Source: Eledone cirrhosa
Lineage: Eukaryota
Direction of reading: 5' to 3'
Length of the DNA stretch: 64,000 nt
NCBI GenBank assembly: GCA_964016885.1
Contig: OZ024742.1
Location: forward strand, 193,378,001-193,442,000
Every line of letters starts with the position of its first letter. Within the stretch, counting starts at the first letter, position 1. The notes under the pieces were generated by a model that was not told where the DNA came from, searched no databases, and was given only the letters and a program-made list of their open reading frames with translations. A program made the position numbers and the translations under genes. Shown one piece after another: positions 6,397 through 59,204 of this stretch.

Positions 6397-7346
6397 AAGT
6401 AGAACACTGGAATGTAATATCCGTAGTGGTAGAGCACTCAGTTCATGGGACGAGTTTGGTAGAAGTTGTAACACAGCAGTTAGTTCACCATACCGAGAAC
6501 AATTGTTTCACCTTATGCGGATATTCAGCTCGGACTGGTCATGGTTATACGGAACAGGAAGAACAACTATATGAACGCGCACGCGCAGACATGGTCACTT
6601 CCCCCAAGCGATACCCAAACACGGGCGAAAGGTGTAACTGCGAAAGTCCGAAATAAAAAGTTCGAGTTGATTAGAAAATTAGAATGCTGTTGTTATACAA
6701 TCCGGAGCTTTGTAGTTATAAAAGAGTTGTTTGCAACGTGAGAAGATTTGATTTCTTGAATTTAGGCAATCGCTATTGCGTATCTCCTTAGAATTGTTAT
6801 CGTTTCTTCAATACACAGTTCACAAGACGGATTGTCCCTGCGTATGGCTTGGACTTAGTGTTGTCTTTCCATCAAATGGAGTAGTCTATACCTGAGTCTT
6901 TGAGGGACCATACGTAGCTCACGAGCTTCGTGGATGATCGTTTGTACGGGTATCTAAAGGTCGCCTGATGGTTGAGGAAGCGTTCCTTAAATAAGCCCTC
7001 CACCATACCCACATAGGATTTGACCTCCTGTGGTTAATTTGGTCGGCTGGAAGTGACCACAGCTGGAAACACCTCTTGCATAAATACAAAGCTCCGGATT
7101 GAATAACAACAACATTCTAATTTTCTAATCAACTCGAACATTTTATTCCGGACTTTCGCAGTTATCTTCCTTACACCTTTCGCCCGTGGTTTTGTATCGC
7201 TCGGGGAGAAGTGACAGTTTCTGCGCATGAGCGTTCGTACGGCTGTTCTTCCTGTTCCGAATAACCATGACCAGTCTAAGCTGAAGATCCGCATAAGGTA
7301 AAACAATTGTTCTCGGTGTGGTGAACTAACTGCTGTGTTACTACTT
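6397..7346 (-). mobile_element. Penelope-like element 3' end (GIY-YIG remnant + pLTR) with an inverted pLTR copy
   Basis: Minus strand about 7033-6735 reads KSYVGMVEGLFKERFLNHQATFRYPYKRSSTKLVSYVWSLKD..(frameshifts)..CELCIEE..CLNSRNQIFSRCK, a PLE GIY-YIG C-terminus. Arms 6463-6735 / 7063-7346 are inverted repeats. Confidence 0.85.
6493..6533 (-). ncRNA. Minimal type I hammerhead ribozyme, family 3 (mirror copy 7276-7316 on + strand)
   Basis: Consensus ccgag-CTGAAGA-tccgcataaggt-GAAA-caattg-TT-ctcgg. Stem I ccgag/ctcgg; palindromic AACAATTGTT. Each copy carries one different core mutation (CTGAATA here, GAAA>AAAA in the mirror). Confidence 0.78.
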
Positions 7347-8549
7347 ATATATATATATATATATATATATATATATATATATATATATATATATGGGTGT
7401 GTGTGTGTATATATATGTATGTGCCTGTGTTTTATATGTGTGAATGTATGTGTATGTGTGGATGTGTATGTGCGGGTTAAATATAATTGCACTTCTCAGG
7501 GTACTATTAATTTTATTAATATGGGATGCGTTGAAGCCCTTGGAATTAGAGATTTGAAACTTACATCGCCGGTGGCAGTTTGTATATTGGCTCTGTCATC
7601 ATTTCTACAAAAGAAGAGCAATGACACCTCCAAATCAGTATCGAGCTCAAATTTAAATAATTGCTTTTACATTTTCCATCTGAAATGCATTGTTGCAAGT
7701 ATCAAGCTAATGTAGCTAATAGTATTAGATGTTAAAAATTAGTTTGAATATCTATATACACAAACGCCTGACAGCAGAACCAAATCCATATACATACTTG
7801 AATACATACATATAGACGTACACATTATGCCTCCACAAACGGACGTAGACCCTCTCCCATGTATGTATATATTATGTGTGTGTATATATATATATATATA
7901 TATATATATATATATATATATATATATATATATATGGAGGGAGAGGAAGAGAGAAAGAAAGAGATGGGGAGGGGGAGATTCACAACATTTTCGTGCCAAA
8001 CATCCGTCAGCTACAAAGTTAATTTAACGATCGCTTTCCCGCTGTTACGATAACGATATAGCTGTTTCATCAATGTGTATTCTTATTAAGGTGCTTTGAT
8101 ATGTCAGCGGTTAACTTCACTACAACTTATACTAGATTAAGCATAAGCATTTATCGTTAGAACTAAAAACTTGAAGATTCCTTCGGTATTTCTCAGAAAG
8201 GAGATACCACTATAAACCTGTGATATCTTGTAAAACGTGATACATTTACCCACTTTGTGTTGTTCAAATAAATTCTGAGAGTTATCTGTTTGAAATTAAA
8301 TATTGTTGTTGAAGTAGCTATATGAAGAGGAAAGTAGTATGTCAAATCTGTATATATATTATATACCTTTTGTAAGTTTACTATGTTTACTGATAAGTAT
8401 AATGGGCCTCCGTCGATCTTGAATATGAGTGTTTCAAATGTTTGATCAACGGAACGTGAAATTGACGTGTAAGTGGCTGAGCCGTTCACATAAACATTTA
8501 CCCATTGGAAGGTAAAACGTATATGACAAAACTTGCATTTTGAATTACA

Positions 8550-8750
8550 GGCACAGTCCATCTGATGGGCTTCCAAACAGTTCCCATCTACACAATATCA
8601 CTCATGACATGTTTAGAGCTATGTCAATGGTAACTGACACTTGCGCAAGATGTCACAGTGTGGGATCAAACCTTGGACACAATGAATACAAAGTAAACGT
8701 CACAAGCTTCCAGCTATGTAGTATCTACGCTGATAAAACGAAACAGCCAC
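8550..8750 (-). mobile_element. Degenerate tRNA-derived SINE (octopus-type); similar relics near 50190-50470, 51920-52070, 52940-53070, 56055-56180, 60040-60320
   Basis: Motifs gggcttccaaacagttcccatctac and gacacttgcgcaagatgtcacagtgtgggatcaaacc (B-box-like on minus strand), recurring in the window. Family identity is from memory of octopus repeats. Confidence 0.55.
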
Positions 8751-9271
8751 TATGAGCAATAAGCAGGCATTTCTCTATTGATGAGTGCTTGATGCACTCA
8801 TCCATCTTTCAAAATGTTTTTTTCAGTATCCATTTCAAATGAAATTTGAAAAGTGTATGATGCTTGAAGTTCTTTTAATCTTGTCTACCATTCAACATCT
8901 TTCACCATATCCACCAGAGATATAAAAAAAAACAAAGCGACGGTTGTCTTCACAATAGCTTCAGCAGTTCGACATATCTCCACAAGTCAGCATAACCCGC
9001 GGACTAGATGAGTGCGTGAATGTATGTTACATCACTCTGCGCACATTTACGAAAGGCATATGTAAACGACACAACATGGTGACGAGAATGAGGACGATGA
9101 TAACGATGATGATGCTAATGTCTACGCAACTGATGATAACGATGGTGACGATTAAGAGGACAATGATTATAACAAGCATGATGAGGGAAAAAAAAGGCAA
9201 GTGCCGTCAACTTTAACTAAACGTGTTTTAAATTACTATTAAACACATACGTGCATTTACCTACGGCATTT

Positions 9272-9815
9272 AATAATTGTTTCTACTTTTGGCACAAGGC
9301 CAGCACTTATCCCAGTGCATTACTGGTACTTTATTTTATCGTCCCCGTAAGGATGAAAGACAAAGTTAACCTCGGCGGGATTTGAACTCCGGAATTTAAT
9401 AATTGTTTCTACTTTTTGCACAAGGCCAGCAATATCCCAGTGCATTACTGGTACTTTGTTTTATCGACCCCGTAAGGATGAAAGGCAAAGTTAACCTCGG
9501 CGTGATTTGAAATCAGAATGGCAAGGGCTGTAACTCTATGTATCAAAGCATGGCGTCCGATCCTCCACCGATACTGCCAATCCACGAATTTAATAATGGT
9601 TTCTTATATAGGCACAAGGCCAGTAATTTGGGGGGAGGGGAAAGTCGATTAAATCGACCCCAGTGCGGGACTGGTACTTTATTTTATCGACCCCATAAGG
9701 ATGAAAGGCAAAGTTAACCTCGGCAGGATTTGAACTCAGATCATAAAGAGTCGTAACGCTATGCTGCAAAGCATGGCGTCCGACCCTCTACCGATACTGT
9801 CAATCCACGAATTTA
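9272..9815 (-). mobile_element. Three head-to-tail tRNA-derived SINE copies (Nin/Deu-like core, (AAT)n tail)
   Basis: Each copy has, on the minus strand, a gagttcaaatcc-type B-box, the core gcctttcatccttacggggtcgataaaataaagtaccag and the tail gccttgtgcc..agaaac.attatt. Confidence 0.85.
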
Positions 9816-57977: not shown

Positions 57978-58290
57978 TATATTGTTCTCGGTATGGTGAA
58001 CAAACTGTTGTGTTACTACATCAACCAAACTCGTCCCATGGACTGAGTGCTCTACCACTACGGATACTACCTTCCAGTGTTCTACCTCTATACACATCTC
58101 CAGCACCGGTCAGCAGATACTTTCATCACGTGAAAGTTTGGCTTCTAGGAGATTCTTCACCGCGTGTGAGTTTGGCTTTCTACCCTGTGAGCGCTCTCTA
58201 TATCCCCGTGTCCTACACAACTTTGTGCCTCACCAACGTAATAACAATTGTTCTCGATATGGTGAACTAACTGTTGTGTTACTACTTCTA
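57978..58290 (+). mobile_element. Direct-repeat (partial tandem) derivative of PLE family 3, period ~266 bp
   Basis: attgttctcg.tatggtgaac.aactgttgtgttactac at about 57981 and 58247. Matches the reverse complement of 6397-6505 and ends at the same base as 7346 before (TA)n. Confidence 0.82.
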
Positions 58291-58359
58291 TATATATATA
58301 TATATATATATATATATATATATATATATATATGTATATATATATATATATATATATAA

Positions 58360-58902
58360 ATGAAGTAATTCCGTCGGAAAGGTCAAGGTAAAAGAGTGCT
58401 TTATGTAAGTTACAGAGCTTAATAGTTATGTAATAAACAACATAAGGTAATTATTTCATTTACCAGTTGTTTCTTGAAAGCAAACAAAATTTGCTTTCAA
58501 TCATCAGAATGAAAAAATCCTGGTGTATTTATTGACATTGGATTTTAAAAACAAAAATATAATCTATATGAAAGTGAGGCTGGAAAAGGAAGAAGGAAAG
58601 GAAAAAATAAATACACATGCACACACACACAGACACACACACACACACACATATATGTATATATGTGTGTGTATGTATATGTCTGTGTGTGTGTGTATGT
58701 GTGTGCATGTGTGTTTATTTTTCCTTTCCTACTTCCTTGTCCAGCCTCACTTTGATATAGATTATATTTTTGTTTTTAAAATCCAATGTCAATAAATACA
58801 CCAGGATTTTTTCATTCTGATAATTGAAAGCAAATTTTGTTTGCTTTCAAGAAACCACTGGTAAATGAAATGATTACCTTATGTTGTTTATTACATAACT
58901 AT
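58360..58902. mobile_element. Fold-back HHR element, family 9 (arms ~58422-58650 / ~58680-58902 plus left tail)
   Basis: About 200-bp inverted repeat turning in a (CA)n/(TG)n core; (TA)n flanks. Confidence 0.88.
58454..58514 (-). ncRNA. Type I hammerhead ribozyme, family 9 (mirror 58810-58870 on + strand, core mutated to CTGATAA)
   Basis: tttcatt-CTGATGA-ttgaaagcaaa ttttg tttgctttcaa-GAAA-c(a/c)actgg-TA-aatgaaa. 7-bp stem I, 11-bp stem II. Confidence 0.85.
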
Positions 58903-59204
58903 ATATATATATATATATATATATATATATATATATATATATATATATATATATATATATATATATATATAATGTAGGAGGTGAGTTTTATTGTAGAACA
59001 ATAAAACTATGCATATATCGGATAAGTAGCACTCAACAGTTCTGGAGTATATATAAGTATATATATGCATATAAGTATATATATATATATATATATAATA
59101 TATATATAATATATATATATATAAGTATGTATACGTACATACATATATGTATACAGACGTACAGTAGTATGTATATACATACATACAAGCACATACATAT
59201 ATAT

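What the first reader, a model, noticed from the sequence alone, without database searches (positions are those of the whole stretch)
6397..59050. Shared (CC-N7-11-)YYGAGYRY box about 15-30 nt downstream of element termini in unrelated families
Seen in HHR-sense orientation: ccctaagtaTTGAGTACT (~10278), cccatgaaCTGAGTGCT (6433-6449 rc; also ~58035), cctataaatttTTGAGTGCT (23418-23437 rc), ccaaaacttgTTGAGTGCT (~51270), ccagaactgTTGAGTGCT (~59030 rc), TTGAGTACC (~6288), TTGAGCTA twice in the 537-bp unit, ccaaaatatttgTCGAGCAAT (~19566-19586 rc), and variant ccccatgcaTTGAACCAC (~19955). In each fold-back the short arm stops about 15-30 nt before this box. Both ends of the 537-bp array (14680 and 12903) stop about 26 and 17 nt before the two TTGAGCTA copies. 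The far end at 20060 stops about 17 nt before the TCGAGCA copy. Inference: the box is a cis signal bound by the PLE protein that positions internal initiation of reverse transcription just upstream, with short UA/UAU matches annealing to the cut (TA)n primer.
Basis: partly seen in the sequence, partly recalled or inferred. Interest (0 to 1): 0.9.

Follow-up and report, generated by a model that had tools for sequence, protein, structure and literature searches.

The report
Twin RNA hairpins mark retroelement starts
The reported box is one arm of a small bulged hairpin that occurs twice in front of the gene of a widespread group of telomerase-like jumping genes; their insertions mostly end 5-11 bases before one of the two hairpins, so the hairpins likely tell the element's enzyme where on its RNA to start copying.

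Summary
The boxes are real, but they are the 3' strand of a bulged stem-loop: RYUC / 2-7 bp variable stem and loop / usually a 2-nt bulge (UU, UC, UA) / GARY. Two copies lie between the hammerhead motif and the start codon of Hydra-clade Penelope-like elements (PLEs). The 8-mer alone is not enriched (43 hits, 35-42 expected), but its position is. In the window plus 1.2 Mb of unbiased genome, 115 of 146 (TA)n-joined 3' ends lie 0-12 nt before a hairpin (10.5 expected). Distance to the stem base is tight (5-11 nt); distance to the box is not (18-48 nt). The twin hairpin recurs in related PLEs on metagenome contigs (54 of 76 loci), with compensatory changes in the upper stem. Of 35 head-to-head insertions, 34 end at site 1 on one side and site 2 on the other. 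Likely mechanism: a dimeric PLE protein docks on both hairpins and primes both cut DNA strands via 2-6 nt UA matches, giving the inverted repeat and the 'tail'. Binding is inferred, not shown. Internal initiation is known for one PLE; eight literature searches found no description of this signal. The poorly fitting 4116 and 14910 families look like other clades.

The parts
50908..51355 (+). Fold-back insertion of family F51: inverted arm ends at site 1, direct arm at site 2; tail between them
   Evidence: autonomous partner with 742-aa ORF
51161..51202 (+). Hammerhead-type core (CUGAGGA...GAAA) upstream of site 1
   Evidence: pattern match only
51267..51285 (+). Hairpin 1 of F51 (ACUC CAA aac UUG uu GAGU); the cited ~51270 box is its 3' strand
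   Evidence: model hit E 0.018
10269..10292 (+). Hairpin 1 of family F10278; this copy ends at site 2 (10340)
   Evidence: best model hit; hairpin 2 and ORF start in L187
23111..23309 (-). Fold-back of F10278 (site 1 / site 2), hairpin 1 at 23165-23188
6436..6455 (-). Hairpin 1 of family F6441 (1-nt bulge)
58029..58048 (+). Hairpin 1 of F6441 in a partial tandem; the second hairpin after 58087 is degenerate
6272..6293 (+). Decayed hairpin 1 of family F6288
   Evidence: weak hit, E 1.3; intact form in L294
12903..14680 (-). 537-bp hammerhead tandem array plus inverted arm; 14680 end at site 1, 12903 end at site 2
14025..14050 (-). Hairpin 1 of the 537-bp unit (also 13488-13513 and 12952-12977), lower stem GCUC/GAGC
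13953..13970 (-). Hairpin 2 of the 537-bp unit (also 13416-13433)
19193..20060 (+). Fold-back of family F19935 (~522-bp tandem unit); site 1 / site 2
19945..19968 (+). Hairpin 1 of F19935 with compensated lower stem GUUC/GAAC (the 'variant' box)
19569..19589 (-). Hairpin 2 of F19935
3981..4004 (+).
23362..23749 (-). Fold-back of family F23426, hairpin 1 at 23421-23445 (one C>G change in the lower stem)
   Evidence: hairpin 2 and Hydra-type ORF in L359/L369
58970..59063 (-). Tail-only piece of the F23426 group running from site 1 to site 2; hairpin at 59031-59048
54212..54394 (+). Fold-back of family F54305; long hairpin 1 (box about 48 nt after the end, stem base 6 nt after it)
58398..58418 (-). 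Hairpin 1 of the 58360-58900 fold-back (G>A in this copy, intact in C7 and other copies)

Best explanation
The box is the 3' strand of a conserved bulged stem-loop present twice between the hammerhead motif and the start codon of Hydra-clade Penelope-like retroelements, with insertions mostly ending 5-11 nt before one of the two copies, and the hairpins likely act in the RNA as docking sites that set where the element's reverse transcriptase starts. Shown: the hairpin, its duplication, its covariation, its fixed distance from both termini, 2-6 nt of UA overlap at the junction, and the rule that head-to-head insertions use site 1 at one end and site 2 at the other. Inferred: a PLE protein dimer binds both hairpins; its GIY-YIG domains cut both strands of (TA)n; each 3'-OH anneals to the UA run about 6-8 nt 5' of one hairpin; both cDNAs run toward the RNA 5' side and are joined at a variable point. 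This would give an inverted 5' copy ending at site 1 and a direct copy ending at site 2, with the 'tail' being the stretch between the sites. On circular or multimeric RNA the same starts would give tandem arrays such as the 537-bp one.
For: Positional enrichment, with blocks held out: hairpin in 11 of 27 held-out tailed fold-backs vs shuffle mean 0.19, max 2. 115 of 146 ends lie within 12 nt, 98 of 128 outside the window. Stem-base distance 7.5 +/- 1.5 nt, independent of hairpin length (r = 0.02); box distance 26 +/- 7.3 nt. Second hairpin found after the far end in F51, F10278, F54305, F295 and F23426. Metagenome relatives: sequence-only anchor 113 sense vs 12 antisense hits; upper-stem pairs 88, 67 and 63 of 92 vs shuffle maxima 75, 52 and 50; bulge-register control 80/84/218/78 of 276. 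In them 13 of 20 element ends fall -5..12 nt from a hairpin, and TAT/ATA lies 4-11 nt before the stem in 65 of 88 vs 15-26 in control windows. Site 1/site 2 pairing: 34 of 35 unbiased, 38 of 38 in sets selected at or near site 2. A model built only from non-G000 hairpins ranks window sites first. Precedent: the Poseidon element PAc cuts and extends both strands, starts internally at two sites that bound the tail, needs RNA 3' of the starts, and is predicted dimeric (PMC11167929).
Against: No binding or TPRT experiment. The strand test is inconclusive (G.U 12 vs A.C 7 in the first three upper pairs), so an ssDNA role is not excluded. Three second sites (F6288, F6441, F317) are used although their hairpin is degenerate or missing. 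Only 11 of 22 families of tailed fold-backs pass the strict hairpin test, and fixed two-site termini also occur without it, so it is not a universal PLE signal. The hairpin is weak (about -2 to -14 kcal/mol for 58-nt windows) and is missing from the local MFE in about 5 of 16 G000 references. Shuffles ignore relatedness. The precedent is from another clade, and I saw no such hairpin in the PAc letters of its Fig. S1 (reading order uncertain).
Confidence: 0.66

Rival explanations
1. The hairpin works in DNA: the GIY-YIG endonuclease recognises it in the cDNA or integration intermediate and trims or resolves the element a few bases 5' of it, so the ends are cut sites rather than RT starts.
For: Craig et al. 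suggest the tail results from EN-mediated resolution (PMC8557442). The D. virilis EN needed the tail to cleave plasmids (as summarised in PMC11167929). The lower stem is an inverted repeat in DNA too. Tail-only pieces from site 1 to site 2 exist (6 of 71 site-2 ends). The G.U vs A.C test does not settle the strand.
Against: The spacer between the two half-sites varies from 8 to over 30 nt and covaries as a stem, which needs a single strand. In PAc the in vitro RT starts coincide with genomic ends. UA overlap at a fixed offset fits priming.
Confidence: 0.14
2. The hairpins direct cleavage or termination of the RNA about 7 nt upstream, making two 3' ends, and ordinary end-primed TPRT then uses those ends.
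For: It gives the same geometry. RNA-seq read ends fall on the PAc start sites.
Against: Free RNA ends of two kinds should give site1/site1 and site2/site2 pairs, but 34 of 35 are mixed. In PAc the product size did not change when the RNA 3' end was extended.
Confidence: 0.11
3. The hairpins are a translational operator or packaging signal next to the AUG; the ends are set only by UA microhomology in an AU-rich leader, and the link is incidental.
For: Hairpin 2 lies about 40-110 nt before the start codon. The leaders are AU-rich.
Against: Other UA runs in the same references are rarely used. The offset is tight across families. Non-coding tandem units (537 and 522 bp) keep both hairpins.
Confidence: 0.05
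4. One reading: a linear YYGAGYRY box read as sequence at 15-30 nt, shared by unrelated families.
For: GAGCAC is conserved beyond pairing needs (unpaired AC after the stem in most of 92 hairpins), so some sequence readout is likely.
Against: Compensated lower stems ACUC/GAGU, GCUC/GAGC and GUUC/GAAC; box distance 18-48 nt vs stem distance 5-11 nt; upper-stem covariation.
Confidence: 0.04

Closest known systems
PAc (Poseidon PLE of Anolis): internal RT initiation at two sites bounding the tail (Frangieh et al. 2024, PMC11167929)
   Same: Two internal starts, tail between them, AT-rich target, both strands cut and extended, RNA 3' of the starts required, dimer predicted.
   Different: Its binding motif was only bounded (within the first 172 nt of the ORF), not identified, and its start site was described as not homologous to the cut DNA. 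Here the signal is a defined twin hairpin in the leader before the AUG, tails are mostly 55-110 nt, and 2-6 nt UA overlap is the rule.
Hydra clade of C-terminal EN+ PLEs (Craig et al. 2021, PMC8557442)
   Same: RW[K/R], DKT, CxCX5C linker, no CCHH, CxxC/CxH, hammerhead, (TA)n target, inverted 5' copy with tail. The published Hydra-2_Amil consensus shows the same hairpin near its 3' end (seen by eye).
   Different: The paper's text has no match for 'hairpin' and ascribes the tail to EN-mediated resolution. The F51 unit is about 3.9 kb rather than under 3 kb.
3'-tail stem-loops of stringent LINEs (zebrafish ZfL2, PMC4176376; eel UnaL2, PMC1636434)
   Same: A small stem-loop bound by the element's own RT protein close to the start of reverse transcription.
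   Different: There the stem-loop is single, lies 5' of the start near the RNA 3' end, is copied, and is read partly by its loop. Here it is doubled, lies 3' of each internal start, and stem and bulge are conserved while the loop is free.
Non-LTR retrozymes (PMC7229834; bioRxiv 10.64898/2026.07.22.740005)
   Same: The 537-bp and 522-bp hammerhead tandem units look like non-autonomous PLE-dependent repeats.
   Different: In the parts I read, neither paper names a cis signal for mobilisation. These units carry both hairpins, and their array ends sit at the two sites.
L1 twin priming (recalled, no call)
   Same: Both target strands prime on the RNA, giving an inverted 5' part.
   Different: In L1 the internal site is a chance complementarity and the two parts do not overlap. 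Here both sites are fixed by hairpins and the two arms overlap as an inverted repeat.

Membership tests
Hydra-clade PLE | Single ORF with RT and C-terminal GIY-YIG EN | tested here: met
   742-aa ORF with YRDD and a C-terminal IY...YVG motif; 313 homologues at E<=0.001. Pfam scan gave no named domain.
Hydra-clade PLE | RWK motif, DKT instead of DKG | tested here: met
   RWR and DKT in L181; RW[KR] 27 of 27 and DKT 23 of 27 in alignment A1
Hydra-clade PLE | CxCX5C linker, no CCHH cysteine pair inside GIY-YIG, CxxC and CxH present | tested here: met
   CxCX5C 26 of 27, CxxC 27 of 27, CxH 26 of 27, cysteine pair between IY and YIG 0 of 27
Hydra-clade PLE | Hammerhead motif in the pLTR and insertion into (TA)n | tested here: met
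   Core pattern upstream of site 1; (TA)n junctions. Cleavage not tested; no Rfam hit at gathering score in ten loci.
Hydra-clade PLE | Placement in the Hydra clade on an RT tree with reference elements | not tested
   Published reference sequences could only be viewed, not loaded into the tree tools
RT-binding cis stem-loop (as in stringent LINEs) | Conserved secondary structure at a fixed distance from the RT start | tested here: met
RT-binding cis stem-loop (as in stringent LINEs) | Specific binding by the element's protein and requirement for retrotransposition | not testable with these tools
   needs EMSA and TPRT assays
RT-binding cis stem-loop (as in stringent LINEs) | Acts on the sense RNA strand | tested here: inconclusive
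   G.U 12 vs A.C 7; no RNA run listed
Non-LTR retrozyme (537-bp and 522-bp units) | Non-coding tandem units each with a type I hammerhead | tested here: met
   Units and cores
Non-LTR retrozyme (537-bp and 522-bp units) | Self-cleavage and circular RNA | not testable with these tools
   no RNA data

The most novel reading that the evidence does not exclude
Hydra-clade PLEs integrate by programmed twin priming. One RNA carries two identical docking hairpins, a dimer of telomerase-like RT sits on both, and the two strands of one cut in (TA)n are extended from two measured internal starts. One RNA element would then explain the inverted pseudo-LTR, the one-sided tail and the fixed ends of retrozyme arrays, and would give the first defined RNA ligand for a PLE reverse transcriptase, the sister group of telomerase.
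Probability: 0.45. Interest if true: 0.9.

Novelty: new variant of a known kind. Interest (0 to 1): 0.78.

Why it matters
How PLEs choose their RNA and their start sites, and why they carry an inverted repeat with a tail on one side, are stated as open questions (PMC8557442; PMC11167929). A 20-30 nt hairpin conserved across hosts, with a measured offset and intact-looking 742-aa ORFs to go with it, makes this testable with a handful of RNA mutants in an existing in vitro assay. It also predicts element boundaries for annotation and gives a candidate cis signal for non-autonomous retrozymes.

Tried and rejected
Global enrichment of YYGAGYRY: none. Rfam: the window scan's 150 listed hits were sub-threshold microsatellite and hairpin matches, 75 lower ones unseen; 0 hits at gathering score in ten loci; three chance-level hits on one twin-hairpin leader. 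Pfam names no RT domain in the Hydra-type ORF. The first homologue search with an N-terminal piece found nothing. The tool for DNA around exact proteins was closed, so hosts of the named protein hits were not examined; metagenome contigs were used instead and their hosts are unknown. Searches used a mis-registered structure string and are void; they were redone. RNAalifold on A2 recovered only three lower-stem pairs because of gap placement. A2 was hand-picked (40 hairpins), so the unselected test is. One search's distance summary had an indexing error for the 537-bp unit; one search gives the corrected values. The strand test by G.U vs A.C was inconclusive. Expression search: no RNA holder listed. 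PAc Fig. S2 is a picture and its GenBank supplement could not be read, so the PAc leader could not be tested; the preprint's supplements were not seen. I considered an initiator or splice-donor reading of the box and dropped it because the box pairs with an upstream strand in every intact case.
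Full report
Setting. The window is G000:C3:193378001-193442000 of a 3.0-Gb genome, rich in (TA)n and in inverted repeats whose outer ends abut (TA)n. All cited boxes are present at the cited places. The 8-mer YYGAGYRY occurs 43 times on both strands, against 35.3-41.9 from Markov models. 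It also fails to match three of the cited forms, so abundance alone is no evidence.

The termini are fixed per family. For window 51089-51350 the genome search gave 2067 candidates, 40 scored; the direct arm ends at query 262 and most inverted arms at 179, while the fold point differs between loci, so these are independent insertions. Copies that run past 262 continue into a second box-like string and then an ATG. The ORF is 742 aa, with more than 10,000 candidate matches in the genome and 313 database homologues. It carries the features given for the Hydra clade of PLEs in PMC8557442 (section 11): RW[K/R], DKT, CxCX5C, no cysteine pair inside GIY-YIG, CxxC and CxH. The junctions are therefore 3' ends in ORF and hammerhead sense.

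The box is half of a hairpin. I mapped fold-backs in six 100-kb blocks. The box always paired with a strand just after the terminus: lower stem ACUC/GAGU, GCUC/GAGC or GUUC/GAAC, a 1-2 nt bulge on the 3' side, a 2-7 bp upper stem and a free loop. I wrote this down and fetched six more blocks as a held-out set. Of 89 one-sided fold-backs, 60 had a tail of 15-130 nt closed by (TA)n; 29 were dropped. The strict hairpin starts within 22 nt of the short-arm end in 4 of 10 window, 11 of 23 discovery and 11 of 27 held-out cases. Controls: shuffle means 0.05-0.23, upstream control 0-1, random 70-mers 1.7%. The linear 8-mer gives 4, 8 and 10. By family, 11 of 22 have the hairpin and 7 of 22 the 8-mer. 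F54305 is a false negative of the strict test because its hairpin is long.

Both ends have one. The far end is followed by a second hairpin, and then a Hydra-type ORF start, in F51, F10278, F54305 and F295 and F23426 (one mismatch). It is also present in the non-coding 522-bp and 537-bp units. It is degenerate or absent at the second site of F6288, F6441 and F317. I mapped all (TA)n-joined 3' ends from the window and the 12 blocks on 11 natural reference copies: 115 of 146 lie 0-12 nt before a hairpin, 10.5 expected, and 98 of 128 outside the window. For 17 modal sites the distance to the stem base is 5-11 nt (SD 1.5, r = 0.02 with hairpin length); to the GA of the box it is 18-48 nt (SD 7.3). 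The overlap with (TA)n is at least 2 nt at 18 of 20 modal sites, mean 3.4 against 1.0, or 1.8 under a conservative null. I chose the references and modal sites after seeing the ends, so the metagenome set is the cleaner test.

Relatives elsewhere. A profile of 27 homologues fetched 76 metagenome loci (hosts unknown). A sequence-only anchor that demands no upper pairing hits 113 times in sense and 12 in antisense, in 54 of 76 loci. Among 92 distinct hits the bulge is TT, TC or TA in 87. The first three upper-stem positions pair in 88, 67 and 63 cases against shuffle means 67.9, 37.6 and 36.2 (0 of 2000 shuffles reached them), with CG/UA, AU/UA/GC/CG exchanges. Only a 2-nt bulge register works (218 of 276 vs 78-84). 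Thirty-three loci have twins 55-83 nt apart, and TAT/ATA lies 4-11 nt before the stem in 65 of 88 vs 15-26 in control windows. Where a contig holds both pLTR copies with flank, 13 of 20 ends fall -5..12 nt from a hairpin. On a hand-picked alignment of 40 the named structure is 100% paired with 27 double changes. A model built from it, with no G000 sequence, ranks 10261, 58392, 51259, 23159 and 59025 among its top seven window hits, along with two new sites at 2882-2921 and 3301-3345; the 6441, 58043, 19955, 3981 and 23426 hairpins were not among its 21 hits. Shuffles ignore kinship, so these are not P values.

Coupling of the two ends. Among head-to-head pairs of one family with both ends at a named site, 34 of 35 in unbiased sequence are site 1 / site 2, and so are 15, 10 and 13 of as many pairs in three sets selected at or near site 2. 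Independent choice would give many like pairs. Seven symmetric fold-backs in the discovery blocks were not assigned to families. Six of 71 site-2 ends belong to tail-only pieces that begin at site 1, including 58970-59063.

Mechanism. PAc, a Poseidon PLE, cuts and extends both strands in vitro, starts at two internal sites that bound the tail, needs RNA 3' of them and is modelled as a dimer; its binding motif was not identified (PMC11167929). Combining that with the anatomy here, the likely path is: a dimer docks on both hairpins, cuts (TA)n, anneals each primer to the UA run before one hairpin, makes two converging cDNAs, and these join at a variable point. Every step involving protein is inferred. 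Rivals are a DNA-level endonuclease signal, RNA cleavage that creates two ends, and a translational operator. An antisense self-priming model for the inverted repeats has also been proposed (PMC3846280); it does not predict a sense-strand hairpin at both outer ends. The strand test was inconclusive (G.U 12, A.C 7).

Misfits. The 14910 family runs into a different long ORF with an LSKELKFTP motif, which I read as Neptune-like from recall, and has no such hairpin. The 4116 family has its own two fixed ends about 32-40 nt apart, also without it. The signal is clade-limited.

Literature seen. PMC11167929: parts 1-2 of 4 and three supplements, mostly pictures. PMC8557442: passages, section 11, and supplement parts 1, 2 and 52 of 59. 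bioRxiv 10.64898/2026.07.22.740005: parts 1-3 of 5. PMC7229834 and PMC3846280: passages. PMC4176376: abstract. PMC1636434: search listing only. Searches found no description of this hairpin; the library lacks most subscription journals. An earlier unchecked note of this scan reports a similar hairpin in another genome (e1-9578672); it is not independent proof.

Verdict. Observation confirmed with a corrected form. This is a new variant of a known kind (an RT-recognition stem-loop), interest 0.78.

Noticed in passing
window 2826-3345 (minus strand): Two further strong model hits (2882-2921, 3301-3345) in one (TA)n-bounded segment; probably another non-coding family with twin hairpins about 400 nt apart. 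Termini not mapped.
   Followed up: partly
window 14910-15156; L322-L340: Family with two fixed ends and a long Neptune-like ORF (label recalled). Several hairpin-less families share short CAC(A/T)CG-like strings soon after their ends (also window ~6070 and blocks C4, C6, C7); possibly a second clade-specific start signal.
   Followed up: partly
window 4116-4800; L391-L409: Abundant hammerhead family (2619 candidates) with ends about 32-40 nt apart and a CAACAA-containing stretch after site 1, loosely like the AC-rich loop described for PAc.
   Followed up: partly
window 58970-59063; L011, L024: Tail-only pieces running from site 1 to site 2 with (TA)n on both sides; 6 of 71 site-2 ends.
   Followed up: partly
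G000: Many Hydra-type copies have open frames of 740-760 aa, and one family end pattern has 9090 exact matches, suggesting very recent large-scale activity.
   Followed up: no
L191-L192, L342, L370-L389: Short tandem units (257, ~270 and ~522 bp) derived from pLTR leaders; the 257-bp and 522-bp units keep both hairpins. They look like retrozymes in the making.
   Followed up: partly
window 11649-12610, 25640-26790, 61113-62400: Fragments of other PLE clades with CxxC-type linkers and GIY-YIG (weak Pfam hit at 61116-61601).
   Followed up: no
window 29733-31772, 37304-39650, 41473-43646, 44187-48866: Several LINE-type RT ORFs, one open for 679 aa.
   Followed up: no
window 33510-34260: 172-bp tandem array, 4.4 copies, 94% identical; not examined for hammerhead or hairpin.
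   Followed up: no
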